From: a virus
Strand: one strand, 5' to 3'
Length of the DNA stretch: 64,000 nucleotides
Virus record (IMG/VR): IMGVR_UViG_3300005673_000003
Span: 84,729 to 148,728 of that record
Position numbers and translations under genes: made by a program. The notes under the pieces were generated by a model. It did not search any database and was not told the DNA's origin. It saw only the letters and a program-made list of their open reading frames with translations. Shown here piece after piece: positions 865 to 63,154 of this stretch; position 1 is the first letter of the stretch, and the number at the start of each line of letters is the position of its first letter.

Positions 865-1235
865 AGCAATAATCAATCAATTAATCGTCGGAAAGGCAGA
901 GCGGAATCAACTTCTACGTAACGAGAAGAAGTTATCAAAGCCCGTCTTTTAGACTCTTAACTTCCCTCACTATATACAAGATCCAGAGAGGCTTGCAACT
1001 CGCTCTACGGGCCGCTTGTAGCAAGATCCAATGTCATGATGACAGGTTACGCTGTATAAAATATTGCAAGCTGTACGGATGCGGCTTGCAAGTAAAGGGC
1101 TAGGGGTGGATCAAAAAATAAAAAGAAAGATCCCTTTGCTAAAAATTTGGATCAGGCTACAATCTTGATCGGTAAAGCCTGGGTGAGCGGCTATCTGGCC
1201 TAAAAATTAATCAATTTTTGACCCCCAAATAGCAA

Positions 1236-1268
1236 ATCACCCCCAGAGTTAGCCGCTCTGGAGGTTTT
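1236..1268. promoter_or_regulatory. hairpin in the replication-gene leader
   Basis: CCAGAG-TTAGCCG-CTCTGG stem followed by GTTTT. Confidence 0.35.
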
Positions 1269-1538
1269 ATTAGTCAAATTTATTTTTCCTAACCATTCAA
1301 ACAAAAGCACTCAAGGAGAACTTCGATTGAATTTCAGTCGTATGATAACCATCCCTCTCAGGAGGTTTCAGCTCGTATGATAACACTACGCGCTAGAGAT
1401 TGCCATAGGGCAGGCAATATTTTTTCTAATGGGAGCAGCCGTTGGTACCAGGGGTATCAGCGGTTTTGTCGTGCGTTTGCGGCTTTCAATAATCAATCAA
1501 TAATCAATCAATAATCATCGGAACCGGAGTAGGTTTAT

Positions 1539-1886
1539 ATGTTTGCGAGTTCGTGTTTTAGTTTTCCGGCAGGCGATAGATGCCTGACTATCCGGGAAAG
1601 CTTAGTCAAAATTTGCGATGGAAATGCGTGCGCTGCCGCGATCGTGCAGCTGCTTAATGAAGTCGAGGCTTATTCTCGAATCGCGGAAGGCCAGGGGAAG
1701 CCTGCCTGCTATATGGCATCCAGCGATATAGCTGATCAATTGTTTTTTACCTGGCATCAGGTAACGATTTCAGACGCAATCCGCTTTTTAGAAGAGAAGG
1801 GATTTGTAGAAACCGATTACAATACAGCCTCGCTGGTTGTGAAATCCGTCAATCAAGCCCTGGAAGCATTGGGAGGCGAGTCATGA
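1539..1886 (+). CDS. short winged-helix protein, paralogue of the N-terminus of the downstream initiator
   Basis: SCFSFPAGDRCLTIRESLVKICDGNACAAAIV aligns with SCIRFPKNDPFAIIRNCLRVICDENGCAAAIL; LEEKGF aligns with LVEKGY. Confidence 0.55.
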   Translation: MFASSCFSFPAGDRCLTIRESLVKICDGNACAAAIVQLLNEVEAYSRIAEGQGKPACYMASSDIADQLFFTWHQVTISDAIRFLEEKGFVETDYNTASLVVKSVNQALEALGGES

Positions 1887-3316
1887 CGCACGCTAATACC
1901 GTCCAGAGGACTAGCTGCATTAGGTTCCCCAAAAATGATCCTTTCGCGATAATCAGAAACTGCTTAAGGGTTATCTGTGATGAGAATGGATGCGCGGCTG
2001 CAATCCTAAACAATCTTATATCTTGGCATGACAGCAAGTTAAGCTATCTACCTCAAGCAAAACAGAAAAACCGTGTAGCAGAGATGCATGGAGATGAGGG
2101 CACCCAGGATACATCTCTGCTTGTGTACCTTACAGAGCAGGATTTAATCGATGCAGGTATCAGGGAATGGAAGAAGGATTCAATCAGGAAGGCTATCAAA
2201 ATCCTGGTGGAAAAAGGCTATGCATCCATTCACAGTAATCCCAACCCCAGATACAGCTTCGATAAAACTCGATATTTCTTGCTACATCCAGAACCTGTTC
2301 AAAAAGCTCTGGATGAATTCGAGTATGGAGAGCCGGAACCCGATGAGCCAAAAACCGATGATCGGCGGTCGGAAAAACAATATCGAGAGGTTGGGGAAGC
2401 CAAAACCCTTGATACGGGAGAATTTGAAGCGGATCAGCTAGGTCAAGAAGCGGAAAACCAGCAATCGAAAGCGGAAATCCGCTCACGACAATCGGGGAAT
2501 CAATCGTCGCAATCGGAAAACGAATTATATACAAAGATCCATTCCTTAGATCCTTGCTTAGATCCCTCTCCCCCCTTTAATCCCCCCAACGGGGAGAATG
2601 GGGAGGGAGGTGCTTCGCAACCGGATCAAGAATCCGAACCGGAACAGCCAGCAATCATTCCTCCTCTTGCTGCGATTCCGGATCAGCAAGAATCTGGCAC
2701 ACAACCAGAAGGCTCTATACCGGACAAATATTCCGCTGCCGCCGATTTTGTTTTTGAGGAGAAATTTGCTCCTGATGCAAAGTGGTGGCCCGTCCATGAG
2801 GCTCCCTGGAGAAAAGATTTGATCAACTTCAAGGACTCCATGATCCAGGCTTTCCTTACGGTGCATCCCCGAAATTCAAGCGATTGGTACTGGTTAGAGA
2901 ACGGCAGTCCGAATGTATGGCAGGTTGAATCCAAGCTCCAGAAATTGGAGGGAGGCGCAAGGATGCTGACTCTGGATGGCACTTCCCTGGATGCACGCGC
3001 TAAACTCCTCAAGCTTTGGGAGATAGCTCAGCAAATCGAAAACGGGGAACTGCAGGTAGCTAGCACTGGGCAGGCATCCAAGCAGCTCCTGCCAGTCGAT
3101 GAATACGAACGGATTAAGCAGCAAGCGATCGCCCAATCAGAACAGCGGCTGCAGGAGACGGAAGCTCTGGTTAATCAAGCTAAGCCAATCAAGCCAGCCG
3201 CAGAGCTGCCAGCAGCATCGCAATTAGATCCAATCCAGCAAGCGAGGATTGCTAGAACGCAAGCTGCAACCGTAGATCGCTCTCGTGCCACGCTCAGAAA
3301 GCGAATTGCAATCTAA
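1883..3316 (+). CDS. putative phage/plasmid replication initiator (wHTH N-terminus, repeat-rich linker)
   Basis: wHTH-like SIRKAIKILVEKGY; low-complexity linker with 21-bp repeats; directly upstream of dnaB (lambda O-P-like layout). Confidence 0.6.
   Translation: MTHANTVQRTSCIRFPKNDPFAIIRNCLRVICDENGCAAAILNNLISWHDSKLSYLPQAKQKNRVAEMHGDEGTQDTSLLVYLTEQDLIDAGIREWKKDSIRKAIKILVEKGYASIHSNPNPRYSFDKTRYFLLHPEPVQKALDEFEYGEPEPDEPKTDDRRSEKQYREVGEAKTLDTGEFEADQLGQEAENQQSKAEIRSRQSGNQSSQSENELYTKIHSLDPCLDPSPPFNPPNGENGEGGASQPDQESEPEQPAIIPPLAAIPDQQESGTQPEGSIPDKYSAAADFVFEEKFAPDAKWWPVHEAPWRKDLINFKDSMIQAFLTVHPRNSSDWYWLENGSPNVWQVESKLQKLEGGARMLTLDGTSLDARAKLLKLWEIAQQIENGELQVASTGQASKQLLPVDEYERIKQQAIAQSEQRLQETEALVNQAKPIKPAAELPAASQLDPIQQARIARTQAATVDRSRATLRKRIAI
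2426..2530 (+). repeat. five degenerate 21-bp iteron-like repeats (candidate origin)
   Basis: units start at 2426, 2447, 2468, 2489, 2510 (GAAGCGGA/GAAGCGGA/AAAGCGGA/CAATCGGG/CAATCGGA); three AGATCC follow at ~2534-2565. Confidence 0.5.
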
Positions 3317-3367
3317 TTCCCGCAACGATTTCAAGCAATAAATCAATCAATTATTCGGAGAAGTAAC

Positions 3368-5160: not shown

Positions 5161-5790
5161 ATGCTGTACACTGCTTCTTGGAAAAAGGGAAAAGATTACA
5201 TTCACGGCCAAGCTTATTCGATCAGCCTAAAGGCTCCTCGAAATCTCGATTTTCCGATTGAGCACTTAGATTTTTTTAAGCCCACTCAAGGACTGCTGGA
5301 TTTCTGGTATCAATCAGATAAATCCGAGCAGGCATGGCAGGAATACGAATCCCGATATTGGAAGCTAATCTTAGCTCCAGAGCGGAAAAATCCAATCATG
5401 TCCTGGCTCAATAGTTTGCCGCCGCAAAAAGATTGTACGCTCTGCTGTTTTGAGGTTAGTAATCGCTACTGTCACCGACGCTTAGTAGAGCTAATCATCA
5501 GAAAATATCGGCCAGAGCTATGGGTGGGTGACAGTATCCGCGCTACTCTGGAGATTGGCGATAGGGTAGAGCATAAACTGTTGCCTCAGAAAGGGATTGG
5601 AACCGTTCTTGACCGGATGGCAACATTAGCTTATGTAATCTGGGATGATCTACCTCTTGGGGCTGTTCGCTCGGTTGTTCATCCAGTTAAAAGTGGGAAT
5701 TACTACAACCAGATAGGCAATCCGTTACCCTACCCAGGCAACCTTTTGCGGCGAATCGAGGAAAGCAATAATCAATCGATTAAAGGATAG
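5161..5790 (+). CDS. DUF488-family protein with C-terminal SH3-like segment
   Basis: MLYTAS...KPT...WQEYESRY...TLCCFE...CHRRLV pattern. Confidence 0.7.
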   Translation: MLYTASWKKGKDYIHGQAYSISLKAPRNLDFPIEHLDFFKPTQGLLDFWYQSDKSEQAWQEYESRYWKLILAPERKNPIMSWLNSLPPQKDCTLCCFEVSNRYCHRRLVELIIRKYRPELWVGDSIRATLEIGDRVEHKLLPQKGIGTVLDRMATLAYVIWDDLPLGAVRSVVHPVKSGNYYNQIGNPLPYPGNLLRRIEESNNQSIKG

Positions 5791-6672: not shown

Positions 6673-6693
6673 ATAATTGATTGATTTTTGAGA

Positions 6694-8199: not shown

Positions 8200-9221
8200 G
8201 GTAGGTCGCTCCGGGTAATAGTTGTTTGCATCCCGTCTGATGAAATATTTACCAATAATCGCTTACTCCCTGCAATCTGCTGAGATTCGTCAGCTATCAG
8301 AGATACGCCTGCTTTCATTCCCATGAGCGTGTAAATATCATCCAATTGCATCCCAAGCTGAGAGGCGATGATCGCGCTTACGACATTGGCTGGATTCTGC
8401 GGAGCTATTACCACTCCTCCCCCAGTAAAAGAAAATTGACTCGAAAATTGATTGATTTCTGATTGTATTATTCCAATCTGAATGAGAGTAGTATCGACGC
8501 TTGAATCGATCAGGCTAATCTGAGTGCTAATCGTTGCTACCTGAGCGATAACGGTAGTGATCATAGAATGAGCCGATTGAATCTCTGATAAGGCATCGTT
8601 TAGGGTTGTTCGATCATTACTATCGAAGCTATTGCTGGCTTGATCTCCTATGTCTGCCATCAATTTGCCAGCAGTGCCAGCCCCGGTAAACCCAGATGTA
8701 GAGCTACTCCAAACAGAATCGGCGATCGCTTGATTTCCGGCTGTCGATAAAGATCTGCCAGAATATCCCCAGACTTGCTCCGGCGTTACTCCCCCTCCTC
8801 CTCCTTGATTGACAAGGTACGAGGTTTGAATATCTGAAAATTGCGGCTCGATGATGACTGGATTTGATAGCCCATTTAACTCGTAAATCGGCAAGCCAGC
8901 ATCTTCCCCGAAGAGATTTGCTCCGCTGAACCGGATGACGTGATGATAATCGGCAGGGACTATCCTCCAATTCATCCCATTTTGATTCTGCAAGTAAATA
9001 TCTGCTGTTGCATAGACCTGATTCCCCAAGAGATCGACAAATCGCCTTCCTCCTCCAGACTGCCGGAAAGGGAATCGATATTTCAGATTATCGGATTCCC
9101 CCCACCAAATTTCTCCAGCACTCCACAAATCTCTCAATACATCATAAGTGGCGATTATCGGACTCCCCGGCAACGCCTGCTCTGTAATTGTTCGAGTGGG
9201 GCCATCAAAAATAAACGGCAT
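8196..9221 (-). CDS. putative virion protein
   Basis: IADSVW/AGTAGK-type segments and coiled coil; in structural operon. Confidence 0.5.
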   Translation of the reverse strand: MPFIFDGPTRTITEQALPGSPIIATYDVLRDLWSAGEIWWGESDNLKYRFPFRQSGGGRRFVDLLGNQVYATADIYLQNQNGMNWRIVPADYHHVIRFSGANLFGEDAGLPIYELNGLSNPVIIEPQFSDIQTSYLVNQGGGGGVTPEQVWGYSGRSLSTAGNQAIADSVWSSSTSGFTGAGTAGKLMADIGDQASNSFDSNDRTTLNDALSEIQSAHSMITTVIAQVATISTQISLIDSSVDTTLIQIGIIQSEINQFSSQFSFTGGGVVIAPQNPANVVSAIIASQLGMQLDDIYTLMGMKAGVSLIADESQQIAGSKRLLVNISSDGMQTTITRSDLP

Positions 9222-13706: not shown

Positions 13707-13731
13707 AATCGATTGATTATTAAACTGGTTG

Positions 13732-14400: not shown

Positions 14401-14733
14401 CTAACCCCCAGAACTCTTAGATTTTCGCTTCCCCTTAATTGATTGATTTTCCGGTTGAGATTCCGCTAATTCCTCGCTCTCTGCAATAGTATCTACAGCC
14501 GCTTCCTCTACCTTCTGGGGAGTTGCTTCATTGCCTGCTTTAGAATCGGCTACAGGCTCGTCTGCAGTAATCTGAGGAGATGGAGGGTTGTAGTACTCCG
14601 CGTAACCAGCTTCGACCAAAAGTTTATCAATACGCCCTCCAAAGCTTTTAGCTCCATTCGGTTTTCGTAAGCTACCCACTCCTACCAGAGTAGTCAGGAT
14701 TGGCGCTTTCCATTTGTTTGTAGCTGTGATCAT
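14401..14733 (-). CDS. hypothetical protein following the capsid gene
   Basis: GGGAGG RBS before MITAT; LVEAGYAEY and acidic tail. Confidence 0.5.
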   Translation of the reverse strand: MITATNKWKAPILTTLVGVGSLRKPNGAKSFGGRIDKLLVEAGYAEYYNPPSPQITADEPVADSKAGNEATPQKVEEAAVDTIAESEELAESQPENQSIKGKRKSKSSGG

Positions 14734-15874: not shown

Positions 15875-15928
15875 TCCGCCTTCTCCTTGATGGTTAATTG
15901 ATTGATTAGTGGGTTGCTGGGGAGAGGC

Positions 15929-17683
15929 TTAAACCATCTCAGGGAGTTGCTGCATTCTGAGCTTATGGATCTCATCACGCAGTTGCACTCGACGGGCCAT
16001 CATAGTTGGATCTGTCGAGCTTTGAGCTTCTTGCAGCCGCGCTTCTAGTTGCAGGATTTGCCCATCAATAGATTCAGGATCAATAGTCTTGCTGGCGGTA
16101 GAAGCTGCAACGATGCCGCTGCTCATCCGAGCGGGAGCACCAGTGGGATTAAGTAAGCTAGCAAGGGTTTCTTTAGCAGTCTTCCGGATCATTGCCTGCA
16201 TCTCTTGTTGCTGTTGAGCAGCTTGAGCGGCTACCTTTTGTTCTTCCTCTTGCTGAATCTTGGCATTGCGCTCGTCTACTAGAACTTTCACGCTACTGAC
16301 CAAAGGCGTTACCAGTTCGCTAAGCTGAGTAATCATTTGAGCTTGAGCATCAAACGCCGCTTTAATTTCTTCGTTCATTTCGATTTCTCCGGTTGGTGGT
16401 TCTTGAGTTGAATCAGGGGTTATCGGATCGCTTTCAGCAGAGACTGCGGTAGCCTCCGGTTGCTCCGATCGCTCTGCATTGATTGCCTCTGCCGAAGCCG
16501 CGATTAATTGGCTAACGACTCGGTTAAACTCCTCTGATGGCCTTAACCGAGTCGTCAGCTTTTTAAGTCTGCCGCTGCCCCGATGCTGATCCTCTTCTGG
16601 AGGCTTATCTTCGGAGGGTCGGGAGCTGGCAACCAATTCTGTTTGCTGAAATGTCGCTGCATCCTTGTAGAGGATGTTCGCGCCAAGGAGGATGAGCTTG
16701 TCTACCACATGGGCCATCTCCCCGTTAACCTCTTCGTCATGCCCTGGAGCGTAGGCATTGATCGAAAATCCAAGACTTTGTTTATTTGCCCGAATCTGAG
16801 CTACCTTTTCAGGCTGATTGAATGGGAATAATGAGCCACGCACCCAGAAACCGTTATCTTGCCGTAGGGTAGCTCCCAGCATCACTCCAACGATTTCATC
16901 GTTCGCATGATGATCGAGCGTGTCAGCGGCATCTAATGGCAATCCGACGCACTGATTAACTGCTTCCTCTGCAACTGCGCGAGGGATGTACAGCTTCTTC
17001 CCTGGCCCCTTCGCTGGCACGCCTTCAGAGAGCTGATCAACGGTAAATAACTTGCCTTCAATCGGGAGCCGATTTCCTGCCCCTGCTTCGATTAAATCCA
17101 GGCTGCAGGGCAAGCTATACATATCCGCCGCTTCGTGCCCAACCTCCGGTTTCGCTGCCGCTAATTGAGCGAGGCTTGCAGAGATTGCCGGATAGCTGGT
17201 CGCCAGCTCCTGTAAATACTTTTGCAGATCTTGGATTAATTGATTGATTTCTTCGGTGCCCTCACCTTCCGCTACATCGTAAACAGCGTCCTGGAAAAAC
17301 CAGGAGAATGACCAGAGAATGTTGTCCAGCCGCTGATACCAGTTGGAGCGATCGACGAAATTGGTGAACTCCGATGCTTCGATATGGGCATCTTCTGCGC
17401 CCGCTTGAGTCTCCTCCGGTTTTGATTCCGATTGAGATTCAGTTACAGCCGCTGAGCTGGCATCGTCAGAGCGTAGGCCAGCCTGGGTATCTTCCTCGTC
17501 CTCGTCGCCATCGAGCAAGCCAGCATCCCCTAGAATTTCCTGGATTGCTTTGGCAGCGTTAGCTATTCCTTCCAGAGCGGATGCTAATTTTTTTTCATTT
17601 TTTGAGCTAATTGATTTACCTGCTGCCTGGGTTGCTGGCGTGAATCCCCTGGCTGGAGGTCGTCTTTTGAGGGTCTTAGGCAT
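15929..17683 (-). CDS. prohead protease/scaffold protein
   Basis: central HH...VG...GFSI protease-like region and C-terminal coiled coil; between portal and capsid. Confidence 0.6.
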   Translation of the reverse strand: MPKTLKRRPPARGFTPATQAAGKSISSKNEKKLASALEGIANAAKAIQEILGDAGLLDGDEDEEDTQAGLRSDDASSAAVTESQSESKPEETQAGAEDAHIEASEFTNFVDRSNWYQRLDNILWSFSWFFQDAVYDVAEGEGTEEINQLIQDLQKYLQELATSYPAISASLAQLAAAKPEVGHEAADMYSLPCSLDLIEAGAGNRLPIEGKLFTVDQLSEGVPAKGPGKKLYIPRAVAEEAVNQCVGLPLDAADTLDHHANDEIVGVMLGATLRQDNGFWVRGSLFPFNQPEKVAQIRANKQSLGFSINAYAPGHDEEVNGEMAHVVDKLILLGANILYKDAATFQQTELVASSRPSEDKPPEEDQHRGSGRLKKLTTRLRPSEEFNRVVSQLIAASAEAINAERSEQPEATAVSAESDPITPDSTQEPPTGEIEMNEEIKAAFDAQAQMITQLSELVTPLVSSVKVLVDERNAKIQQEEEQKVAAQAAQQQQEMQAMIRKTAKETLASLLNPTGAPARMSSGIVAASTASKTIDPESIDGQILQLEARLQEAQSSTDPTMMARRVQLRDEIHKLRMQQLPEMV

Positions 17684-19146: not shown

Positions 19147-19185
19147 AAAAGATTGGATCCATTAATAATTAATTGATTACCAGGA

Positions 19186-20397: not shown

Positions 20398-20438
20398 AGG
20401 TCTTCACTCCGAAAATCGATTGATTATTGCTTAATCCA

Positions 20439-20482
20439 AAGATAGCCGCTCCCTCTGGAAAATGTCAATATCTATCAATCTA
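20439..20482 (-). promoter_or_regulatory. conserved sigma70-type promoter, copy 1
   Basis: AGATTGATAGATA-TTGACA-N18-TATCTT. Confidence 0.65.
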
Positions 20483-27353: not shown

Positions 27354-27366
27354 TAATCAATCAATT

Positions 27367-45523: not shown

Positions 45524-45553
45524 AAGTCCTCCGATTAATTGATTGATTTTAGA

Positions 45554-48171: not shown

Positions 48172-48188
48172 TGCATTAATTGATTGAT

Positions 48189-48641
48189 TTACTGGAAAGA
48201 CATTCTGTAAGCTGGGTTTCTCAATTTGGTTGCAGCCTCTGCGGATAGGCCGTAATTCCCAAGCTTCTGATTGATCCTGGCTCTTGGATCTGGTGATTTT
48301 TGAGCTATCTTCTCCTGAATTGGATCAACAATTCCCAAGCTTAGCTCGTACCAATCCCAGGCCAGCAATGCTTCCCCTCTATACAGAGATTCGCCCTCTG
48401 TACCTGGCGAACTATTACCAGAAGGACGAATCGGCTCTACACCCTCTTGATACCATCTCCAATGCACCAAAATGTATTCCCCTGCCTGGGAATACCAGAG
48501 GACATCAAATCTATCCCCAGCTTGCAGCTCTGGAGCGGTTTGCGCTGGATTGCCGTACTCATCCACCTCACTTAAGTCAGCAGAGGCGGCAGGGGTTGTA
48601 GGGGCAGCAAAGTAGATTGGAGGCAGGGGAGAAATAGGCAT
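48189..48641 (-). CDS. hypothetical protein
   Basis: coupled ORF. Confidence 0.55.
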   Translation of the reverse strand: MPISPLPPIYFAAPTTPAASADLSEVDEYGNPAQTAPELQAGDRFDVLWYSQAGEYILVHWRWYQEGVEPIRPSGNSSPGTEGESLYRGEALLAWDWYELSLGIVDPIQEKIAQKSPDPRARINQKLGNYGLSAEAATKLRNPAYRMSFQ

Positions 48642-49174: not shown

Positions 49175-49342
49175 GGGTTGCCTTTTAATTGATTGATTAA
49201 CTTAAGTCTAATTCCTAGACCGGGATAGTTTGCGAAGATGCTCCTTTGATTACCAAAAAAGCCAATGCATTTAATTGATGCAAAATAACTCGACTAAATG
49301 CATTGGCTGTACCCTTTAAGATACACATCATCGTGTATGCCA

Positions 49343-49389
49343 ATTATTACTTGAGTGCCAATAAAATGTCAATATCTATCAATCTTTTT
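49343..49389 (-). promoter_or_regulatory. conserved promoter, copy 4 (upstream of the helicase/MTase/que island)
   Basis: AAAAAGATTGATAGATA-TTGACA-N17-TAATAAT. Confidence 0.65.
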
Positions 49390-49610
49390 ATTTATAGCGA
49401 CTTCTAATCGATTGATTATTGATAATCAAAAATAGCTAAAAAAATAGCTGCCAGTTAGACTAGGGATCCTTTTCAGGTACCAACTGACAGCTATGCTAGA
49501 CGCTTTACTTGAGTGGTTATCTCGATAATATCCTGCCATAGATTCATGGTTAAAAGCAATTGGTTAAATAGTACTTAATGTGCTATCGACTAACAATAAT
49601 TGATTGATTT

Positions 49611-51266: not shown

Positions 51267-51813
51267 GATGAGTCAATTTTTTTGAGTCTTTGGCAAGCTT
51301 GAGCAGTAACCGATTGAGCGCTATCTTGGCATTATCGAAATTCTTGAGAGCAGACTTGATCCGCCTATCATTAGCTTCCCTACAAATCTCCAGAAACCGT
51401 CTTTGCAAGATCAGCTTTTGAGTATCGACCTGGCCCAAATTAGAGATCAGGTATTCATCGCTCTTTAGGACAGCAAGCAGAGCGTCATTTGGCTCTGGGA
51501 TGCCATCTAAAAAGGTTTCTCCTGATTCCCTGCAATGCGTGCAGCTATAATCCCAAGCCTCGTAGAGCAATCCATACCACTTAAGGTAGTAATTCCTGAA
51601 TACTCCATATAGCTCCAACTGAATGGCGGATAGGTCAGCAATCTTTGCACCCGTCCCAGCAAAAAAATCATTTAAGCTCTGCATCAGCCACGGATAAGCA
51701 TCTGCTAAAACTCCCTTGAAGAGAAACTGCTGACTCTCTTCAAGGGATAGTAGAAGCTCCATTGGGGTTGGCTGGTTCGCTTTTCTAGACGAATGGTTCA
51801 TGCCAAAAATCAA
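51259..51813 (-). CDS. hypothetical protein
   Basis: coupled ORF. Confidence 0.5.
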
Positions 51814-51818
51814 TCAAT

Positions 51819-53945
51819 TTACAGATAGGGGCGAATGTAAGGAGTCACCGAAACCGGGAATGGATTCCAATTCTCGATCACTAGCCCATTGAGCCATTTC
51901 CCTTTCTGAGCTGCAATTTGCACCCCAGGAATGCTCTCGATTAGCCCAGCAAAGTAGTTATCGGTGGCGATAAACAATTCGCTGTAGTCTCTTGGTTGGG
52001 AGATTGTATCCCCCTGAGAGATGCCATCTACGCTACTGAGAAATAGATAATTGCTAGTTGGGTCAATGCTTAGCACAGAAGCTTCTGCAACGTCTTCATA
52101 GAGCGGAGTCCGCACCAGCGCCCTATCTCGCTTCCAAGCCAGCACCCCAGAGAGAGTTACTCGCTTCAATCCAGTACTAATTGCCGCAATTATTTGAGGA
52201 TCAACCGCTTCAAAAGGAAAGCGCACCGTTGCTTTCCCTGGAGAGGCAGATTCTCCGTAAACAATTACATCATCAATGCTCATACTAGGGAAAGGCTCTA
52301 GCGTGAGTACATTTCCGCTGATGCCTGAGATGATTGGAAGCCCTATTAAGTAATCGCCTCGCATCACCTTCACCGAAGTATTTAGCACGAATCCAGAAGC
52401 GCTCTTGACGGTAACAGTTCCGCTTCCTACTCCGGTCACGATCGTTTCTGCAACCGGAGGATTCTTAGCTGGCACCATCACCGGAGGTAGATTGATTAAT
52501 GGAGCGTGAGCGCTAATTGCAACCGAATCGATCGGTGTGCGGTTCTCGAATAATGCCAGTACTTCGAGCTTTGCCGGATCCCCTACGTTAACCTGCCCCT
52601 CCAATAAAGTTTCATCCCAGACGATAATCCGTTGCCAGCAGCGTAAGCCTTCAGAGGATAGTACGAAAGGAACGTTCGATTGACCGCTAAAATTGCTAGT
52701 TGCTGCCCGTCCAGCCAGGGAGCCGTTTACGTAAACGCTCAGGGTAGAGGTTGCTTCGGCTACCTGAACCAGAATCTTAGCTGGAGACGGTAACGCTTGC
52801 GGCAGGCTCACCACTGCGTTTCCAGCTTGAACTACCAACTTGCCGCTTGTAATAGTTCCGGTCAGGTTGCCCAAATTAAACAGATTCCCATTCCCCCTCC
52901 ATTCCTTTAACTCCAGGTAGAGAGCGAATGATTTTAGGCTACCAATGGGAGACTTGCGCCAGTGCAGTAAGCTCTTGGCGCGAGGCTCAATTTGCCCATC
53001 CTGATAGATCATGGAAGTACGGAATGAACGCTTCTCCAGTTGCATTCCACCCCAATCTACAGAGACGGTTTTCTCGCTGTACAGCTCAATGGTCACGCTT
53101 TGCATGGGAGCATTGAGCAGAGATGCTTTCATGGATGTGGTGTTTCCATCCGATACAATCGTGCTGGTTGAAACCGTGACAATAATTGATTGATTACCGA
53201 CGCTTGTAGCCGTATTCGTGGTGATCAGGTAGTTATGGTTATTGATTGATAGCTGTCCTCCCTTCCAGGAATCAACCGCTACGCTGTAGCCTACTGGAAT
53301 GGTCAGGGTAGCCGTATTCTGAGTTAGCGCGGTGATTGTGTATTGGAAGACTTGATGAGAGTTCCCCGGAGGAGTAGGGTTGCGGCCTCCAGTCTTGAAG
53401 GGTAGCGTGAGCAGTTTATAGAGGTTGCTGTAATCATTTAAGATTGTTAATCCAGCTTGATAAGTGCCGTCAATATCTCCAGTCACCCTGATGTAATCAT
53501 TAGCCCCGAATTTGCCGCCTCTGAGCCGCAAGATTGCTGATAGGGTGTAGTCGCTCCCAGCTTCTAATTGAAATGTCCTGGTCAGTTTCTGCCCGTCTCC
53601 AGTTCCGGTATCCCACCGGAGGCGATCGCTAGTTGGAGTACCATCGGGAGCATACTCGCCCATTCCGGCATAATCAGCTCTCACGCTGACCTGGGGGCTT
53701 CCTTTAATCCAGGCGGATTGGCTTAAATCCATATTCCAGGTAATCAGATTGGAGCAAGCAGGCTCTAATAGAAAACTGCCATCCTCATAGCTGATCCCTG
53801 GATGATGGGATTCGATCGGGTAGAGCTGTAAGCTTCCCGCAATTGTCCGCTCCAAATTCACTGGGGATTCGCGGCTCCATACTGCCGTATCTCCCACCGT
53901 ATCTAGGGATACCAAAGATCCCTCAATCGAAAACACTCTAGGCAT
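51819..53945 (-). CDS. virion protein with carbohydrate-binding/LamG-like domains
   Basis: LLEPACSNLI, WGGMQLEK, SVYVNGSL; start reassigned to MPRVF. Confidence 0.6.
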   Translation of the reverse strand: MPRVFSIEGSLVSLDTVGDTAVWSRESPVNLERTIAGSLQLYPIESHHPGISYEDGSFLLEPACSNLITWNMDLSQSAWIKGSPQVSVRADYAGMGEYAPDGTPTSDRLRWDTGTGDGQKLTRTFQLEAGSDYTLSAILRLRGGKFGANDYIRVTGDIDGTYQAGLTILNDYSNLYKLLTLPFKTGGRNPTPPGNSHQVFQYTITALTQNTATLTIPVGYSVAVDSWKGGQLSINNHNYLITTNTATSVGNQSIIVTVSTSTIVSDGNTTSMKASLLNAPMQSVTIELYSEKTVSVDWGGMQLEKRSFRTSMIYQDGQIEPRAKSLLHWRKSPIGSLKSFALYLELKEWRGNGNLFNLGNLTGTITSGKLVVQAGNAVVSLPQALPSPAKILVQVAEATSTLSVYVNGSLAGRAATSNFSGQSNVPFVLSSEGLRCWQRIIVWDETLLEGQVNVGDPAKLEVLALFENRTPIDSVAISAHAPLINLPPVMVPAKNPPVAETIVTGVGSGTVTVKSASGFVLNTSVKVMRGDYLIGLPIISGISGNVLTLEPFPSMSIDDVIVYGESASPGKATVRFPFEAVDPQIIAAISTGLKRVTLSGVLAWKRDRALVRTPLYEDVAEASVLSIDPTSNYLFLSSVDGISQGDTISQPRDYSELFIATDNYFAGLIESIPGVQIAAQKGKWLNGLVIENWNPFPVSVTPYIRPYL

Positions 53946-54735
53946 GGTTCCCCTCCTGCAATTTTTGCTGTTCTTGATGACTGGCGACATGATGTGCAGC
54001 CAGGATCAAAACCTTTTCCCTATCCTCCTCGGAAAGCGCTGCTAAGATAGTCAGAGCTTGGCTTTTCGCTGCAGTCAACTGATTCCCCGTCCTCAGCTCT
54101 GCCTCCCGATTTAATAGCGCTTCTCGCTGTTCTGGGGGGAGGCTGAATACGCTTTCCCCAACCCCTTCAGGCAATCCATTCTGAGCAGCCCAGACTCTAG
54201 CTGCAATAAATCGAGCTTGCCGCTCAAGTAGCATCGGGGCAGTAAACATTTCCTGCAATTCCTGATAGGTTAATGCAGTTGCTTCAGGATGCTCTGCCAG
54301 GATGCGATCTCGCTCCTGGATAGCGGCATCGCGCTCCATTAAGGCATCCCTGACTTCAGCTCTAGAGCGTACCAACTTACGAGTAGTCAGCTCGATATAA
54401 TCACGGCACGCTTCAAGATCATCCTGCTGTCTTTCGCTGGGATGGACAGCTTCAGCAAGGTCATTAACCTGTCGCTCCATTCGACGGATCTCGCGCTCTT
54501 GCTTGCGGCACTCAAAAATAAAGTTCTCAAGAGCGGATGATTTTTCATCAATAAACAGCTCAGCTTGTCGCAATCCACTAAACCAATGCTCCATTTCTCT
54601 GCGCCGGATTTCATGAATCACAGATGCGCGGGAATTGATTGATTTATTGCAGATTGGCAATTCTGCAATAGTCGTTGGCAGTTCCATTAAGCTGATTTTA
54701 GCCGTTTCCAAATTAACGTCCCGGTGTGTAGTCAC
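53938..54735 (-). CDS. coiled-coil protein (fibre-associated)
   Basis: heptad-rich; follows the kelch-like gene. Confidence 0.5.
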   Translation of the reverse strand: MTTHRDVNLETAKISLMELPTTIAELPICNKSINSRASVIHEIRRREMEHWFSGLRQAELFIDEKSSALENFIFECRKQEREIRRMERQVNDLAEAVHPSERQQDDLEACRDYIELTTRKLVRSRAEVRDALMERDAAIQERDRILAEHPEATALTYQELQEMFTAPMLLERQARFIAARVWAAQNGLPEGVGESVFSLPPEQREALLNREAELRTGNQLTAAKSQALTILAALSEEDREKVLILAAHHVASHQEQQKLQEGNHA

Positions 54736-55930: not shown

Positions 55931-55957
55931 TCCAATTGATAATTGATTGATTTCCGA

Positions 55958-57659: not shown

Positions 57660-59939
57660 CTAGATTCTGAAGGTATCAAAGGCGCATCCTTGCGTGGAAT
57701 CAAACTCGACGCTATCCCCTCCATCCCCGGTGAAGGTAGCAATAACCAATCGCTCTTCCTGCCCCTTCCTGACCAGGAAAGCGATAATCGATTGATAAAT
57801 GACCTGACGGTTAAGAATTGGGTTACGAAAGCCTACCGTAACCCCGTTTGATTTGAGCACCGCATGAAGTGATTTGCCGCTGCCGATGCCAGGATTTGCG
57901 ACTAGGGATAGAGTCATGCCGGGAGTTGGCATTGCTAATCCTGCACCGGATAAAGCAGCTCCGGGCCTGGTGCAACTTGGCCCAGGGTTCGGCTCATTGT
58001 AATACCGGATTGCGGCATCCATCCGATAACAGGGAATGCCGTTTTCCACTAACGGCAGATGCATCGAGATTGGCGAGTATCTGATAGAGCTGTCAGCTTG
58101 GAATACGCTATTCCCCCCTCCTTGAGTTGTCATCCAGAAGTAAGGCTTGGAGATGACGATCGCGCCATCCAAAAAGTTCGGCTCTACAGCGCTGGTGCCC
58201 TGGTAGGGGCAGTATCGGAATTGAGCTTGCCAGCTCTCTGTACTGCGAGGAGGGTAGTAAACCAGAGCGTTAACCATAGTGTTCGGAGTTAACCCTGTTT
58301 TCACCGGGGCATCAATTCTACCCGTCGCTCCTTCGATAAAAGCAAAGCAGCCAAGTTCAGCAGAGGGGATTAGCGCGGTTCCATTGGAATCAACGGGTAC
58401 TTGCACCTTCTTGTAGATGTAGTGCAATGCTGCCCTCTCCTTACCGAAGACAGCGATATAGGATTCATTATTAGCCGGAGCTTCGTAGGCTTGCAGATCT
58501 CCACAGTGACCAGAACGGATATTCGCTGCAGAAATTGGAGTTCCGTTGCGCCAGGTTCGCTCGACCTCCTCAAATGGAATATCAAAACCAGAGCCGGAAG
58601 GATACTGAATTCCAGGGACAAAATAAACTATATTCCCCGGTTGGATCGTGGAGTTTTGGCTGGCAACCCATACCAGAGCACCCGATTGCCCCAGATTGAT
58701 AAATTGCCCCAGCTCTGATTGTTCCGTTCCGTCCGCTTTGAAGATGCGATGATCAGATGGCTTTTCGCTAAATACCGTTCCTGGGGGCGAATTAGTATTG
58801 AGCTGAGCGGTTACTACAGCCGCTCCATTTCCATCGGGAGTTGCAGTGGTAATCTGTACGCCCAGGCGTTGCAGTAAAGCCTGATTGCTAAACGAAACCC
58901 GATTATCGTTAGCAAGGCAAACGCTGCCATTCGGGGATGCCGCTGACTCTCCCGCTCGACCGGGATTGCCTCCCACCAATCCAGCAGTCAGGTTTTGTAC
59001 CGTCCTGGAGTAGCAAGAAAGCGGCCCAGGTTTGCCGGAAAAAATCTCGATCAATCTATCGGCAATCCGGCTGTCTATATCTCGCACCTTGGGCAAAGCG
59101 GCTGGCATGATGACGTACTTCGCATCAAATTGCTCCTCACCCTGATTGCCAAAGGTGTAACCCCTATCAAGGTAGTTTTGCTGGCGGACTATCCGGCAAA
59201 CCTCAGTTACCTCTACAAAGTCTTGCAGGATTGGGTAGGTCGCTCCCTGCGTCAGACTGGGATCTAAGGCAAAGATGCGTTGTGTTCCATTCACAAACCC
59301 ATCAGCGGTTTTATTGCTTACCGTCAGCACCCTATCCCCAGTCAAGCGCGGCTCTTGGTTAGCGGGAATTACTTCTTGAGTAAGCGATTGATAAAAGCTT
59401 TCAGCAGTCAGTGCAGTAGGGGAAAGCACCAGCGCCCAGTAGATACGATCGCGCTTCGCATTCTCCTTTGTTGTAGGAGTCAGGGTATTTGTATTCCGGT
59501 CGAGATACTGGAAGCTAACCTGGCCCAGCACCGCGTCTTGATCTCCTCCCGTAATCGCCCCAAATAGCACCAGATAAAGCCGCTCCTCCCGTTTGACAAT
59601 ATCGCTTAAGTTTGGGATTGCTGGGATATTGATTGTGTTAGCTAAACTGAGTAGAACCGAGGGGTAAAGCTTGCTCAGATAATCACCGTTAACGGTGACG
59701 CTTCGAGTGCCTACTGTGATCTGCACTTTTGCCCATTCTGATGCCCTGGACTGAAAGGCTAGATAGGCTGAGATCCAACCCTGAAGCGCATCTTCGGGGG
59801 CGAGGCGAACTCTTGGATCTGACGGTCTTGCTGGCTCGATTGAGTGTACTGCAATATCGTTCGGCTGGCGGGAGAAAGGGCTAGTCATGGCGACTCGTAA
59901 GGCATTGTATTTCAAGCCAATGTTATCACGCTGGTTCAA
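57660..59939 (-). CDS. putative baseplate/tail structural protein
   Basis: 759 aa; follows the tail-I-like gene. Confidence 0.5.
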   Translation of the reverse strand: MNQRDNIGLKYNALRVAMTSPFSRQPNDIAVHSIEPARPSDPRVRLAPEDALQGWISAYLAFQSRASEWAKVQITVGTRSVTVNGDYLSKLYPSVLLSLANTINIPAIPNLSDIVKREERLYLVLFGAITGGDQDAVLGQVSFQYLDRNTNTLTPTTKENAKRDRIYWALVLSPTALTAESFYQSLTQEVIPANQEPRLTGDRVLTVSNKTADGFVNGTQRIFALDPSLTQGATYPILQDFVEVTEVCRIVRQQNYLDRGYTFGNQGEEQFDAKYVIMPAALPKVRDIDSRIADRLIEIFSGKPGPLSCYSRTVQNLTAGLVGGNPGRAGESAASPNGSVCLANDNRVSFSNQALLQRLGVQITTATPDGNGAAVVTAQLNTNSPPGTVFSEKPSDHRIFKADGTEQSELGQFINLGQSGALVWVASQNSTIQPGNIVYFVPGIQYPSGSGFDIPFEEVERTWRNGTPISAANIRSGHCGDLQAYEAPANNESYIAVFGKERAALHYIYKKVQVPVDSNGTALIPSAELGCFAFIEGATGRIDAPVKTGLTPNTMVNALVYYPPRSTESWQAQFRYCPYQGTSAVEPNFLDGAIVISKPYFWMTTQGGGNSVFQADSSIRYSPISMHLPLVENGIPCYRMDAAIRYYNEPNPGPSCTRPGAALSGAGLAMPTPGMTLSLVANPGIGSGKSLHAVLKSNGVTVGFRNPILNRQVIYQSIIAFLVRKGQEERLVIATFTGDGGDSVEFDSTQGCAFDTFRI

Positions 59940-61977: not shown

Positions 61978-62003
61978 TTGACGATAAATATTGACGATAA
62001 ATA
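61978..62003. repeat. 13-bp tandem repeat
   Basis: TTGACGATAAATA x2. Confidence 0.85.
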
Positions 62004-62315
62004 AAAGCAGAGGGCTAACCGTTCGCTAAAACTTGGACAAAGTTACCCGAGTGGACTTGAACGGTTTAAGTCCTAAGCAATCCTCTCAAGTGCTATTAGC
62101 TTCCGCAAAGCGGTTGACCAAAGAGCGGCAGTTAGCCATAGCATAGAAAGAAATGGCATCAAAAGTAAAAGCCGTTCCTCATTGGCAGAAGCGGCTTAGG
62201 GAAATGATGGAAGATTTATCTAACAATGGGTAGGTTTGTGCAAGATTTTAATTAACTATTCACCACCCTCTGCCTACTACAGGTGACTACTCTCTTATGG
62301 ACAGATGAAAACGGG

Positions 62316-62864
62316 TTACTCGACTGGCAAAGCTTCAGGAGATGGTTCTGCCGGAGCTTCAGGGGTAACAGCTTCTACCAGGCTATCAGCAGGAACTTCA
62401 GGGGATAGCTCGATGGGAGGCTCAATGGGCACTACAGGCTCTTCATCGCTGGAGGATTGATTGAATAATCCCAGCAATTCTTGAGCAAGCTGCTCGGATT
62501 GCTGATTACTTTCCAGGTATGCGGTCAATCCATCTTGGGCAGCTTTGGCTTCTTGCTCCGAAACTTGAGCTTTGGCTTGAGCATCCTTAAGTGCAACTTG
62601 AGCATCCTGCAAGCGCTGCTCATAGGTAGCGATTACCATCTCATCTTCTACTTTGTCTTGTTGGATAACTCGACCAAGTTCATTTTGCAGGCTTGCAATT
62701 TGCTCGGATAGGTTAGCGATAGCCTGATCCTTCTCTGCAATCTGCGCGGATAATTGCAGCACTCGGTTAACTAAAGATTTATTTTCGGATTTCAAGTTCC
62801 GATCATGATCTAGGATTGCAATAGCTTTATTTTTGACAAGGGAAAGTAATTCGACTAATGACAT
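62316..62864 (-). CDS. coiled-coil hypothetical protein
   Basis: heptad repeats and Pro/Glu tail. Confidence 0.55.
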   Translation of the reverse strand: MSLVELLSLVKNKAIAILDHDRNLKSENKSLVNRVLQLSAQIAEKDQAIANLSEQIASLQNELGRVIQQDKVEDEMVIATYEQRLQDAQVALKDAQAKAQVSEQEAKAAQDGLTAYLESNQQSEQLAQELLGLFNQSSSDEEPVVPIEPPIELSPEVPADSLVEAVTPEAPAEPSPEALPVE

Positions 62865-62915
62865 AGGAGGAGATGGATTGTTTGGGATAGTTCAATAATA
62901 CCCATCAACTCGTCT

Positions 62916-63137
62916 ATGTGCTCTCATCAATCCGAAGATTTTTTAGTACTCGAAGGAGAGCCAGAAGCGGCCAGCCTTCGAGTATGCCTTTGCCAGCATT
63001 GCAGCACCCTGAGAGCAACTACCGCGCTTACTCTCAATCAGGGAATCTCTTTTACTCTGGGCGAAAGAAGGGATCCAGAATCAGGGAGCCGCATCGTCAC
63101 AATGGAAGATATTAGGCTAATCTTAAACAGTCAGTAA
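62916..63137 (+). CDS. small hypothetical protein
   Basis: CxxC; ends at a motif copy upstream of the gp25-like gene. Confidence 0.35.
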   Translation: MCSHQSEDFLVLEGEPEAASLRVCLCQHCSTLRATTALTLNQGISFTLGERRDPESGSRIVTMEDIRLILNSQ

Positions 63138-63154
63138 TCAATCAATTATCTACT

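What the first reader, a model, noticed from the sequence alone, without database searches (positions are those of the whole stretch)
871..63147. Highly over-represented, transcription-oriented 12-mer AATCAATC(A/G)ATT
Seen: about 35 exact copies by eye, plus near-matches (tandem at 1491-1513; also 4904, 19167, 23177, 26018, 39856, 57786), where far fewer than one is expected by chance. Nearly all are on the sense strand of the local genes and flip where genes flip; exceptions are 22548, 27355 and 51808. Most lie at gene junctions just before the RBS (dnaB, capsid, ParB-like, helicase, gp25). Others are inside ORFs in all three frames (NQSI, SIN, INQF), so selection acts on the nucleic acid. 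Inference: a phage-wide signal such as an RNA-binding, antitermination or processing site, a DNA-organising or packaging site, or a HIP1-like repeat generated by the phage's own MTase/DpdA activity.
Basis: partly seen in the sequence, partly recalled or inferred. Interest (0 to 1): 0.85.

Follow-up and report, generated by a model that had tools for sequence, protein, structure and literature searches.

The report
Oriented gene-start 12-mer array in cyanophage
A 148.7-kb cyanophage carries 103 exact, transcription-oriented copies of one 12-base word, mostly in the short leader just before ribosome-binding sites; it most likely serves as the docking site of an unidentified sequence-specific regulator, like mycobacteriophage 'stoperators', though an RNA-level role is not excluded.

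Summary
AATCAATC(A/G)ATT occurs 35 times in the window (0.09 expected) and 103 times in the complete 148,728-bp phage. Two cyanobacterial MAGs of about 5 Mb hold only 4-8 copies.

The word is asymmetric, not a palindrome family. Orientation is 48 sense to 4 antisense at gene junctions and 27 to 4 inside ORFs. Junctions follow one pattern: TAA-GCAAT-motif-WWTC-GGAG-N4-9-ATG.

It is present at 62% of co-directional gaps of 25-99 nt, but before only 10% of genes whose upstream neighbour is on the other strand. In 12 of 16 conserved host-type promoters it starts 20 nt or less after the -10 box. It is therefore transcribed leader or operator DNA, not a promoter.

In-ORF copies arose by point substitution, independently in each lineage. 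Sister phages use AATCAATT(A/G)ATT.

- Best reading (about 0.4): an operator/stoperator-like site array for a phage regulator.
- Main rival (about 0.28): an RNA leader or intercistronic element acting on translation or processing.
- A HIP1-like or DpdA origin is not supported.

Other windows of this genome were flagged for the same word, and similar oriented arrays were noted earlier on other phages. This is a new variant of a known kind.

The parts
871..882 (+). exact copy (A-form), follows a GC hairpin after the stop of the HTH gene 393-836
3341..3352 (+). exact copy, 15 nt before ATG of DnaB helicase (3368-4762)
5770..5781 (+). exact copy (G-form), 15 nt before ATG of DUF5131 gene (5797-6672)
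6675..6686 (-). exact copy just after the stop of the last minus-strand gene (6694-7107), at a convergent junction
8446..8457 (-). exact copy inside ORF 8196-9221, sense
13707..13718 (-). exact copy (G-form), directly abutting an ATG (probable true start of gene 13104-)
14437..14448 (-). exact copy, 39 nt before ATG of 13732-14397
15896..15907 (-). exact copy, 21 nt before ATG of the putative capsid gene (14792-15874)
17238..17249 (-). exact copy inside ORF 15929-17683 (peptide EINQL); relatives have other residues there
20414..20425 (-). exact copy (G-form), 13 nt after the -10 box of a class-1 promoter and 16 nt before ATG of 19708-20397
21346..21357 (-). exact copy, 15 nt before ATG of 20971-21330
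22548..22559 (+). exact copy (G-form), antisense inside the DnaG primase gene
23261..23272 (-). exact copy (G-form) overlapping the stop of 23273-24715, just upstream of a class-1 promoter
25347..25358 (-). exact copy (G-form), 13 nt before ATG of 24791-25333
27355..27366 (+). exact copy, antisense, 1 nt from the ATG of 26088-27353
28472..28483 (-). exact copy, 13 nt before ATG of 27367-28458
31368..31379 (-). exact copy at codons 2-5 of 30916-31383
31396..31407 (-). exact copy (G-form), 12 nt before ATG of 30916-31383
32608..32619 (-). exact copy, 13 nt before ATG of the baseplate-J-like gene (31413-32594)
32953..32964 (-). exact copy inside ORF 32621-33043, sense
34980..34991 (+). exact copy, about 13 nt after a class-2 promoter-like element and 14 nt before ATG of the HTH-255 gene
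37029..37040 (-). exact copy, 27 nt before ATG of the ParB_N-domain gene (36186-37001)
37520..37531 (-). exact copy (G-form) inside the DpdA-like ORF, sense
38661..38672 (-). exact copy in a paralogous DpdA-cassette ORF (38199-38924), sense
41814..41825 (-). exact copy, 50 nt upstream of the GTP cyclohydrolase I gene start
45537..45548 (-). exact copy, 13 nt before ATG of 45299-45523
48178..48189 (-). exact copy, 21 nt before ATG of 46708-48156
49187..49198 (-). exact copy, 12 nt before ATG of 48641-49174, downstream of a promoter-plus-terminator unit
49406..49417 (-). exact copy (G-form) just upstream of a class-1 promoter
49598..49609 (-). exact copy 1 nt after the stop of 49611-51266
51808..51819 (+). 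exact copy, antisense, between 51259-51762 and 51819-53945
53184..53195 (-). exact copy inside ORF 51819-53945 (NQSI) at an indel-prone spot relative to homologues
54633..54644 (-). exact copy in the N-terminal codons of 53938-54711; the relative has a 7/12 match over the same S-I-N peptide
55941..55952 (-). exact copy, 16 nt before ATG of 54713-55924
63136..63147 (+). exact copy, 7 nt before the ATG at 63155 (ORF 63155-63655)
1491..1513 (+). two overlapping-in-tandem 1-mismatch copies (AATCAATCAATA x2), 25-36 nt before ATG of 1539-1886
19167..19178 (-). sister-form copy AATCAATTAATT, 20 nt before the portal ATG (the orthologous junction carries the sister motif in relatives)
23177..23188 (-). 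1-mismatch copy (AATCAATCGATC), 11 nt after the -10 box of a class-1 promoter and 11 nt before the primase ATG
26018..26029 (-). 1-mismatch copy (AATCAATCGGTT), 10 nt after the -10 box of a class-1 promoter
39856..39867 (-). 1-mismatch copy (CATCAATCAATT), 15 nt before a small ORF start
57786..57797 (-). 1-mismatch copy (TATCAATCGATT), in-ORF, sense
20439..20480 (-). class-1 host-type promoter (conserved upstream block, TTGACA, 18 nt, TATCTT)
23200..23240 (-). class-1 host-type promoter (TTGACA, 17 nt, TACCGT) before the primase gene
26040..26080 (-). class-1 host-type promoter (TTGACA, 17 nt, TAGAAT)
49344..49384 (-). class-1 host-type promoter (TTGACA, 17 nt, TAATAA) followed by a hairpin plus U-run
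34956..34979 (+). class-2 promoter-like element (TGAGACATAATG-nn-GATGTAAGCA) driving the HTH-255 gene; a back-to-back partner lies at 34829-34852 (-)
35006..35773 (+). candidate reader: 255-aa protein whose C-terminal HTH domain resembles ParB/KorB/Noc DNA-binding domains (weak match)
393..836 (+). second candidate reader: 147-aa XRE-type HTH protein, conserved next to DnaB in the sister phage

Best explanation
The 12-mer, with about 4 weakly conserved bases on each side (roughly a 19-20-bp footprint), is the asymmetric recognition site of one sequence-specific trans-acting factor, most likely a phage-encoded DNA-binding regulator.

Copies lie in the initial transcribed region of the phage's conserved host-type promoters, where they would act as operators. 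They also lie in most non-overlapping gaps between co-directional genes, after some stop codons, and inside long genes, where they would act as oriented roadblocks.

Bound factor would block or modulate RNA polymerase that arrives in the sense direction. This is the way Cluster A mycobacteriophage repressors act at operators and 'stoperators'. It could silence the genome in an episomal prophage state or shut off a temporal class of genes.

Shown here: the site anatomy, orientation, placement relative to promoters, stops and ribosome-binding sites, phage specificity, and the lineage-specific variant.
For: - The array is phage-specific: 103 exact copies against 4-8 per ~5-Mb cyanobacterial MAG.
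- It is asymmetric. True palindromic variants occur 0-4 times each.
- It is oriented with transcription: 48:4 at junctions and 27:4 in ORFs, flipping even at single-gene islands.
- 8 of 9-10 class-1 promoters and 4 of 6 class-2 elements have a copy starting 20 nt or less after the -10 box. This is an operator-like position, and it shows the word is not the promoter.
- It is present in 36 of 58 co-directional gaps of 25-99 nt.
- Copies also sit 0-30 nt after stop codons, after the last gene of an operon, and 8-9 times in a 12.8-kb gene. A site needed only for translation initiation would not be expected there.
- All classes share the same A/T flanks.
- In-ORF copies arose by substitution, independently in each lineage, so there is directional pressure.
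- Sister phages use AATCAATT(A/G)ATT at the same kinds of places, as expected if site and reader co-evolve.
- A ParA-type ATPase plus an RHH protein (a type Ib partition-like pair) leaves room for an episomal prophage.
- The phage encodes HTH proteins, one of them with a ParB/KorB/Noc-like DNA-binding fold.
- The site-level features match published stoperator arrays (PMC9283540, PMC6550527).
Against: - No reader has been identified. The HTH-255 fold match is weak (E about 0.06) and no homologue was found in the partial relatives.
- No integrase or serine recombinase was found in this phage or in G002, and host flanks of the 'provirus' relative could not be confirmed, so lysogeny is unproven.
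- The ParA gene itself has a sense copy upstream and another inside, which is awkward if it must be expressed in a silenced prophage.
- The very tight spacing to the Shine-Dalgarno sequence (2-8 nt, mode 3) and to the ATG (11-21 nt) persists in long gaps: 25 of 42 copies against 10.4 expected. A translation-linked RNA element explains this more naturally.
- Genes whose upstream neighbour lies on the other strand rarely carry the site (3 of 30), although these should include regulated promoters.
Confidence: 0.4

Rival explanations
1. RNA-level leader or intercistronic element. The transcribed, G-free, unstructured 12-mer just 5' of the Shine-Dalgarno sequence would be bound by a phage or host RNA-binding factor or by the ribosome. 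It would promote independent translation initiation at cistrons that are not translationally coupled, or it would define or protect processed mRNA 5' ends, giving phage mRNAs one common leader.
For: - The cassette is stereotyped: TAA-GCAAT-motif-WWTC-GGAG-N4-9-ATG. The motif ends 2-8 nt before the SD and 11-21 nt before the ATG, even in long gaps.
- It is present at 62% of non-overlapping co-directional junctions and at only 2 of 44 overlapping or coupled ones.
- It lies downstream of predicted transcription starts, so it is in the RNA.
- Relatives place the word 2-9 nt from an ATG with no SD.
- Its opening energy as RNA is about 2 kcal/mol, against about 6 for random windows.
- The sense bias in ORFs exceeds the bias expected from stop-codon avoidance.
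- The Start-Associated Sequences of Cluster K mycobacteriophages are a published precedent for a gene-start word suspected to act in translation (PMC3203893).
Against: - About 20-30 genuine in-ORF copies, copies after stop codons or the last gene of an operon, and antisense copies have no role in this model.
- The accessibility is a composition effect. Shuffled words are equally open.
- There is no complementarity to Leptolyngbyaceae 16S rRNA beyond shuffled controls.
- No RNA-binding protein or dedicated RNase was recognised among about 95 proteins scanned.
- Operon-first genes mostly lack the word, which is odd for a general translation enhancer.
Confidence: 0.28
2. Phage-specific (middle or late) promoter. 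The word would be the core element read by host RNA polymerase with a phage specificity factor, or by a phage polymerase. Transcription would start at its 3' edge and give very short leaders.
For: - The word has about 100 oriented copies and is phage- and lineage-specific.
- Copies occur before many structural and replication genes and inside long genes, as with T4 late and T7 promoters.
- Some copies directly follow terminator-like hairpins.
- Several large proteins remain unannotated.
Against: - 12 of 16 conserved host-type promoters place the word 5-20 nt downstream of their own -10 box.
- Genes that must have their own promoter, because the upstream neighbour is on the other strand, rarely have it: 3 of 30 against 36 of 58 internal gaps (Fisher p = 3e-6).
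- With only 2-8 nt to the SD, and 0-4 nt to the ATG in some cases, a start site downstream of the word would truncate the SD or the start codon.
- Nothing is conserved upstream of the word.
- No sigma region 2 or T7-type polymerase was detected, although the T7-type search had no positive control.
Confidence: 0.1
3. DNA-level by-product or mark: a HIP1-like iterated word created by biased repair or methyltransferase activity, a target for the phage's DpdA/DpdB 7-deazaguanine insertion, or a conserved junction cassette that mediates recombination between modules.
For: - In-ORF copies arise by conversion of near-matches, which could reflect biased gene conversion from about 100 templates.
- The phage encodes several DpdA/TGT-like proteins, a ParB_N (DpdB-like) protein, Dam-type and N4/N6 methyltransferases, and is itself rich in HIP1 (68 sites).
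- The about 30-nt junction cassette is long enough for short-homology exchange.
Against: - Asymmetry, strict gene-by-gene orientation and fixed spacing to the SD are not expected from a repair or modification by-product.
- The word is at chance level in the cyanobacterial genomes examined.
- No DpdA homologue was found in the available sequence of relatives that carry the sister word.
- The A-form has no G on the sense strand.
Confidence: 0.08

Closest known systems
Operator/stoperator arrays of Cluster A mycobacteriophages (L5 gp71, TipsytheTRex Rep; PMC9283540, PMC6550527)
   Same: - A short asymmetric word (12 versus 13-14 bp) in dozens of dispersed copies, at similar density (1 per 1.4 kb versus about 1 per 2 kb).
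- Located at promoters and in short intergenic gaps.
- Orientation tied to the direction of transcription.
- Lineage-specific variants of the word.
- Partition genes instead of an integrase in some members.
   Different: - No gp71-like repressor is recognised, and lysogeny is unproven.
- The host is a cyanobacterium and the phage is a 149-kb contractile-tailed type.
- Spacing to the Shine-Dalgarno sequence is far tighter.
- Roughly a quarter of copies lie inside ORFs.
- Copies are almost invariant (103 exact).
Start-Associated Sequences (SAS) of Cluster K mycobacteriophages (PMC3203893; function still open in PMC12699233)
   Same: An asymmetric 13-bp word, in one orientation, immediately upstream of start codons of many genes, essentially absent from the host, with an unknown reader. 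A role in translation is suspected.
   Different: - SAS contains the SD itself and lies 3-7 bp from the start codon. Here the word is separate from the SD and 5' of it.
- SAS has 11-19 copies, confined to the non-structural arm and rarely in ORFs. Here there are 103 copies genome-wide, including structural genes and ORF interiors.
SPBRE sites bound by the master repressor MrpR of Bacillus phage SPbeta (PMC10516654)
   Same: A repeated 15-bp phage-specific element at multiple promoter regions, shown to be the binding site of one master repressor.
   Different: SPBRE has only about 10 sites, all at promoters. Its reader has a tyrosine-recombinase fold, and no such domain is detectable here.
Dispersed ParB-family sites (KorB operators of RK2, Noc-binding sites, parS)
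   Same: These are 13-16-bp sites scattered over a replicon and read by an HTH domain. That is the fold which the candidate reader HTH-255 weakly resembles. The sister phages' word can be a perfect 12-18-bp palindrome.
   Different: Those sites are symmetric and orientation-free. In this phage the symmetric variant is nearly absent (4 copies) and orientation is strict.
HIP1 (GCGATCGC) of cyanobacteria
   Same: A highly iterated short word. HIP1 itself is present 68 times in this phage.
   Different: HIP1 is a palindrome, is host-wide, and is not tied to gene starts or orientation.

Membership tests
Cluster A-type operator/stoperator array | Many (more than 20) dispersed copies of one asymmetric 12-14-bp word | tested here: met
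   103 exact and 46 one-mismatch copies; palindromic variants occur 0-4 times each
Cluster A-type operator/stoperator array | Orientation follows the direction of transcription | tested here: met
   48:4 at junctions, 27:4 in ORFs; flips at single-gene islands
Cluster A-type operator/stoperator array | Sites at lytic promoters (operators) and in short intergenic gaps | tested here: met
   12 of 16 conserved promoter elements have a copy 20 nt or less after the -10 box; 36 of 58 co-directional gaps of 25-99 nt carry one. The promoters are predicted, not mapped.
Cluster A-type operator/stoperator array | Word varies between lineages together with the repressor (immunity specificity) | tested here: inconclusive
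Cluster A-type operator/stoperator array | Monomeric two-domain HTH immunity repressor (gp71 family) | tested here: inconclusive
   No family hit. The HTH-255 model has an N-terminal domain plus a ParB/KorB-like HTH domain at a weak score. Direct comparison with gp71 was not made.
Cluster A-type operator/stoperator array | Temperate lifestyle (integrase or partition system) | tested here: inconclusive
   No PF00589, PF07508 or PF00239. A ParA-like ATPase plus an RHH protein is present. The relative is labelled provirus, but host flanks were not confirmed.
Cluster A-type operator/stoperator array | Orientation-dependent block of transcription by bound repressor | not testable with these tools
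   Needs reporter assays or ChIP
Start-Associated Sequences (Cluster K) | The word contains the SD and lies 3-7 bp from the start codon | tested here: not met
   The word is G-free and ends 2-8 nt 5' of a separate GGAG, 11-21 nt from the ATG
Start-Associated Sequences (Cluster K) | One orientation, absent from the host | tested here: met
Start-Associated Sequences (Cluster K) | Confined to the non-structural arm, rarely in ORFs | tested here: not met
   Copies lie before capsid, baseplate and tail genes, and 27-31 copies are in ORFs
Phage-specific promoter (T4-late or T7 type) | A phage-encoded polymerase or specificity factor | tested here: inconclusive
   No PF00940 hit (but the control was silent), no sigma region 2, and only a sub-threshold region-4-like HTH. 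About 95 of 180 proteins were scanned.
Phage-specific promoter (T4-late or T7 type) | Stands in front of transcription units, with the start site downstream of the element | tested here: not met
   It lies downstream of host-type -10 boxes. It precedes 3 of 30 genes with an opposite-strand upstream neighbour, against 36 of 58 internal gaps.
HIP1-like iterated palindrome | Palindromic, host-wide, indifferent to orientation and gene starts | tested here: not met
   No PF00589-like frame anywhere in the genome

The most novel reading that the evidence does not exclude
The word is a universal RNA tag. Every primary and internal phage message would carry the same 5' leader (AAGCAAU-AAUCAAUCRAUU-N3-GGAG), and long messages would carry extra internal copies. 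A phage factor could then tell phage RNA from host RNA, for selective translation or for protection from a host-shutoff or host RNase. That would be a bacterial-virus counterpart of common leader sequences and of chloroplast PPR-type intercistronic caps.
Probability: 0.15. Interest if true: 0.85.

Novelty: new variant of a known kind. Interest (0 to 1): 0.58.

Why it matters
Genome-wide oriented site arrays are experimentally understood only in Cluster A mycobacteriophages and SPbeta. The related gene-start words of Cluster K phages have remained unexplained since 2011.

This cyanophage offers an unusually dense and clean case:
- about one near-invariant copy per kilobase;
- fixed geometry relative to predicted promoters, stop codons and ribosome-binding sites;
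- a sister lineage whose word differs at one position;
- copies evolving de novo inside genes.

One EMSA and one RNA-end-mapping experiment could decide whether such arrays act on DNA or on RNA. The result would also show how large freshwater cyanophages organise gene expression, and it gives a ready-made sequence signature for recognising this phage lineage in metagenomes.

Tried and rejected
- **Palindromic family AATYRATYRATT** (suggested by other first-stage notes). Rejected for this genome: only the two asymmetric forms are abundant.
- **Pairing of the word with 16S rRNA.** Duplex energy is -7.3 kcal/mol against -6.95 +/- 1.3 for shuffled words.
- **Anti-motif in a phage tRNA or known ncRNA.** There are no tRNAs. 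The only Rfam hit is a HEARO/omega RNA, whose guide region is unrelated to the word.
- **Context-adapted RNA accessibility.** Native and shuffled words are equally open.
- **Regular spacing.** Spacing is only mildly more even than random (CV 0.80 against 0.985, p = 0.012), as expected from the link to gene junctions.
- **Insertion origin of in-ORF copies.** Alignments show substitutions, not 12-nt insertions.
- **Close relatives.** Megablast against deposited phages found no match. A single-protein scan of viral contigs found none. A motif-plus-SD scan found two tiny fragments with one copy each.
- **RNA evidence.** No RNA holder is listed for this DNA.
- **Strain variation.** Laying the four DNA runs showed one clone with 2 low-depth SNPs and no usable joints. 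The loose ends are assembly branches at the repeat.
- **Fold of HTH-255 from a single sequence.** Too low in confidence to use.
- **Host flanks or a tRNA at the ends of the 'provirus' relative.** Not found.
- **T7-type polymerase family search.** No hit, but its control was also silent, so this is uninformative.

Full report
**1. Observation**

AATCAATC(A/G)ATT occurs 35 times in the window, against 0.09 expected from dinucleotide-preserving shuffles. The window is the last 64 kb of a complete 148,728-bp viral record with 150-bp direct terminal repeats. That record holds 103 copies (71 with A and 32 with G at position 9), and the reversed word occurs 0 times.

It is the most frequent 12-mer of the genome. 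The second iterated word is HIP1 (GCGATCGC, 68 sites), which marks the host as a cyanobacterium. Portal homologues come from Leptolyngbyaceae MAGs such as Timaviella and CSU_1_4.

**2. Anatomy of the word**

A logo of the 103 sites shows weak conservation beyond the core, roughly c-a-a-w before it and w-w-t after it. Nothing is conserved at a -35-like distance.

The wider self-complementary family AATYRATYRATT, proposed in other notes on this genome, does not hold here. The two asymmetric forms account for 103 sites, and every other variant has 0-4. One-mismatch copies (46) behave like exact ones.

**3. Placement**

I trained a simple gene caller on the long ORFs, which gave 180 genes. The copies then classify as follows:

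| Class | Copies |
|---|---|
| Junction, sense | 48 |
| Junction, antisense | 4 |
| In-ORF, sense | 27 |
| In-ORF, antisense | 4 |
| Other intergenic | 20 |

About 8 of the 27 in-ORF sense copies are probably at mis-called starts.

Junction copies are stereotyped: upstream stop TAA, GCAAT, the word, WWTC, GGAG, 4-9 nt, ATG. The word ends 2-8 nt (mode 3) before the Shine-Dalgarno sequence and 11-21 nt (mode 16) before the ATG.

Presence depends on the type of junction:

| Junction type | With motif |
|---|---|
| Co-directional gap, 25-39 nt | 14 of 20 |
| Co-directional gap, 40-59 nt | 10 of 17 |
| Co-directional gap, 60-99 nt | 12 of 21 |
| Overlapping or under 10 nt | 2 of 44 |
| Upstream neighbour on the other strand | 3 of 30 |

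The contrast between internal gaps (36 of 58) and the last class gives Fisher p = 3e-6.

In gaps of 60 nt or more, 25 of 42 sense copies lie within 25 nt of the ATG, against 10.4 expected if positions were uniform. Several of the rest sit 0-30 nt after the upstream stop codon.

**4. Relation to promoters**

The genome has nine near-identical host-type promoters, plus one weaker copy. Each has a conserved 16-nt upstream block, a perfect TTGACA, a 17-18-nt spacer and a TAnnnT box. In eight of them a copy of the word starts 5-16 nt after the -10 box. In the other two a hairpin with a U-run intervenes.

A second conserved element (TGAGACATAATG-nn-GATGTAAG, six copies) is followed by the word within about 20 nt in four cases. 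One of these is the promoter of the HTH-255 gene.

With the usual spacing of about 7 nt between the -10 box and the start site, the word lies at roughly +1 to +25. It is therefore transcribed and sits where operators sit. These promoters are predictions from sequence, not mapped starts.

**5. In-ORF copies**

They use all three frames and share the A/T flanks of the junction copies. In the 4,281-aa tape-measure-like gene there are 8 exact copies plus 1 variant, lying in Pro/Ala-rich linkers with unrelated flanking DNA.

They are not at orthologous positions in relatives. Where homologues align, they arose by substitution. For example, the conserved peptide S-I-N is encoded by a 7/12 match in the relative and by the perfect word here.

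The antisense word carries TGA in two frames, so a 3:1 sense bias is expected from coding alone. The A-form shows 18:0 (p = 0.006) and the G-form 9:4.

**6. Comparative data**

Two cyanobacterial MAGs of 4.9 and 5.1 Mb hold about 8 and 4 copies.

Low-coverage phage contigs binned with one of them carry AATCAATT(A/G)ATT 17 times in 39 kb. A 97.5-kb 'provirus' record related to the Timaviella contig carries it about 10 times. In both, the word often sits 2-9 nt before an ATG with no SD, and the G-form is a perfect palindrome of up to 18 bp.

At the orthologous portal junction, our phage itself has the sister form. The family is therefore lineage-specific and differs at position 8, with purine degeneracy kept at position 9.

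**7. Mechanism**

*Promoter.* This reading is disfavoured. The word lies downstream of host-type -10 boxes, it rarely precedes genes that need their own promoter, and it leaves too little room for a start site before the SD. No polymerase or sigma factor was found, although the scan was not exhaustive (and the Pfam/PHROGs scans).

*RNA leader element.* This reading explains the tight coupling to the SD and the intercistronic preference. The word is intrinsically unstructured as RNA. However, that is a composition effect, there is no 16S complementarity, and the model leaves the in-ORF, post-stop and antisense copies unexplained.

*DNA site array for one regulator.* This reading covers all classes of copy. 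It matches, feature by feature at the site level, the operator/stoperator arrays of Cluster A mycobacteriophages: an asymmetric 13-mer, 20-30 copies, at promoters and in short gaps, orientation-dependent, lineage-specific, with parABS in the non-integrating members (PMC9283540, PMC6550527).

Supporting circumstances for the DNA-site reading:
- a ParA-like ATPase followed by an RHH protein;
- HTH proteins, one of which (window 35006-35773) folds confidently with an alignment and weakly resembles ParB/KorB/Noc DNA-binding domains.

Weaknesses of the DNA-site reading:
- no reader has been shown;
- lysogeny is unproven, with no integrase found;
- the ParA gene itself carries copies;
- the spacing to the SD is tighter than a roadblock needs.

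I put the DNA-site array at about 0.4, the RNA element at about 0.28, the promoter at about 0.1, DNA by-product, modification or recombination readings at about 0.08, and the remainder as unknown.

**8. Comparison and novelty**

No paper in the library contains the word in a phage context.

The nearest known systems are stoperators, the Start-Associated Sequences of Cluster K phages (function still open; PMC3203893, PMC12699233), and SPBRE/MrpR of SPbeta (PMC10516654).

This array differs from them by host and phage type, by copy number and invariance, by its fixed position 5' of a separate SD, and by the many in-ORF copies. It is a new variant of a known kind, not a new category.

Other windows of this same genome were flagged for the same word. 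Earlier notes of this scan describe comparable oriented arrays in unrelated phages. I treated those notes as leads only.

Noticed in passing
window 42731-44263 (-): An IscB-like RNA-guided nuclease module. The ORF has RRXRR plus HNH domains (425 aa), and a full-length HEARO/omega RNA (Rfam RF02033, 155 bits) lies directly upstream of it. The guide region is unrelated to the 12-mer. A second RRXRR-only ORF lies at genome 66419-67582 and a fragment at genome 19298-20020.
   Followed up: partly
L039:10004-11101 (genome 64004-65101, -): A TnpB-type ORF (OrfB_IS605 plus Cas12f1-like TNB domain) inside the phage. It is a second OMEGA-family nuclease.
   Followed up: no
window 20439-20480, 23200-23240, 26040-26080, 49344-49384 (-) and five more upstream of the window: A family of nine near-identical strong host-type promoters. 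All share a conserved block AAAAAGATTGATAGAT just 5' of a perfect TTGACA. The block loosely resembles the reverse complement of the 12-mer (9 of 12) and may be a separate regulator site or an UP element.
   Followed up: partly
window 34829-34979: A back-to-back pair of a second conserved promoter-like element (TGAGACATAATG-nn-GATGTAAG; six copies genome-wide). It drives the HTH-255 gene on one side and the minus-strand tail operon on the other, and it looks like a regulatory switch region.
   Followed up: partly
window 49255-49345 (-): A class-1 promoter followed within about 80 nt by a long perfect hairpin and a U-run. This could be a small RNA gene or an attenuator ahead of gene 48641-49174. 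A similar promoter-plus-hairpin arrangement lies at genome 66090-66164.
   Followed up: no
L040:3958-5052 (genome 75958-77052, -): A ParA-like ATPase (phrog_164, E = 2e-24) followed by a 118-aa protein with a C-terminal ribbon-helix-helix. This is a type Ib plasmid-partition-like pair in a phage without a recognisable integrase.
   Followed up: partly
window 40096-41763 (-): The GTP cyclohydrolase I gene is interrupted by an intein with a LAGLIDADG domain.
   Followed up: no
window 36186-38924 and L036:10309-11664: Several DpdA/TGT-like genes, one of them fused to DUF6884, with a ParB_N (DpdB-like) gene beside them. Together with the cyclohydrolase gene, this points to 7-deazaguanine DNA modification.
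   Followed up: no
L037:5344-18189 (genome 23344-36189, -): A single 4,281-aa tape-measure-like ORF of 12.8 kb. Homologues are present in the relatives.
   Followed up: partly
window 57632-57664, 21805-21829 and several gaps upstream of the window: A second short intergenic repeat with an 8-nt period (AAATCTAR, e.g. TCTAGAAATCTAAAAAT). There are 8 loose matches in the window, against 0.44 expected.
   Followed up: partly
whole genome: HIP1 (GCGATCGC) occurs 68 times in the phage. It is 2-5 times denser still in the related provirus record, so phage HIP1 content tracks the host.
   Followed up: no
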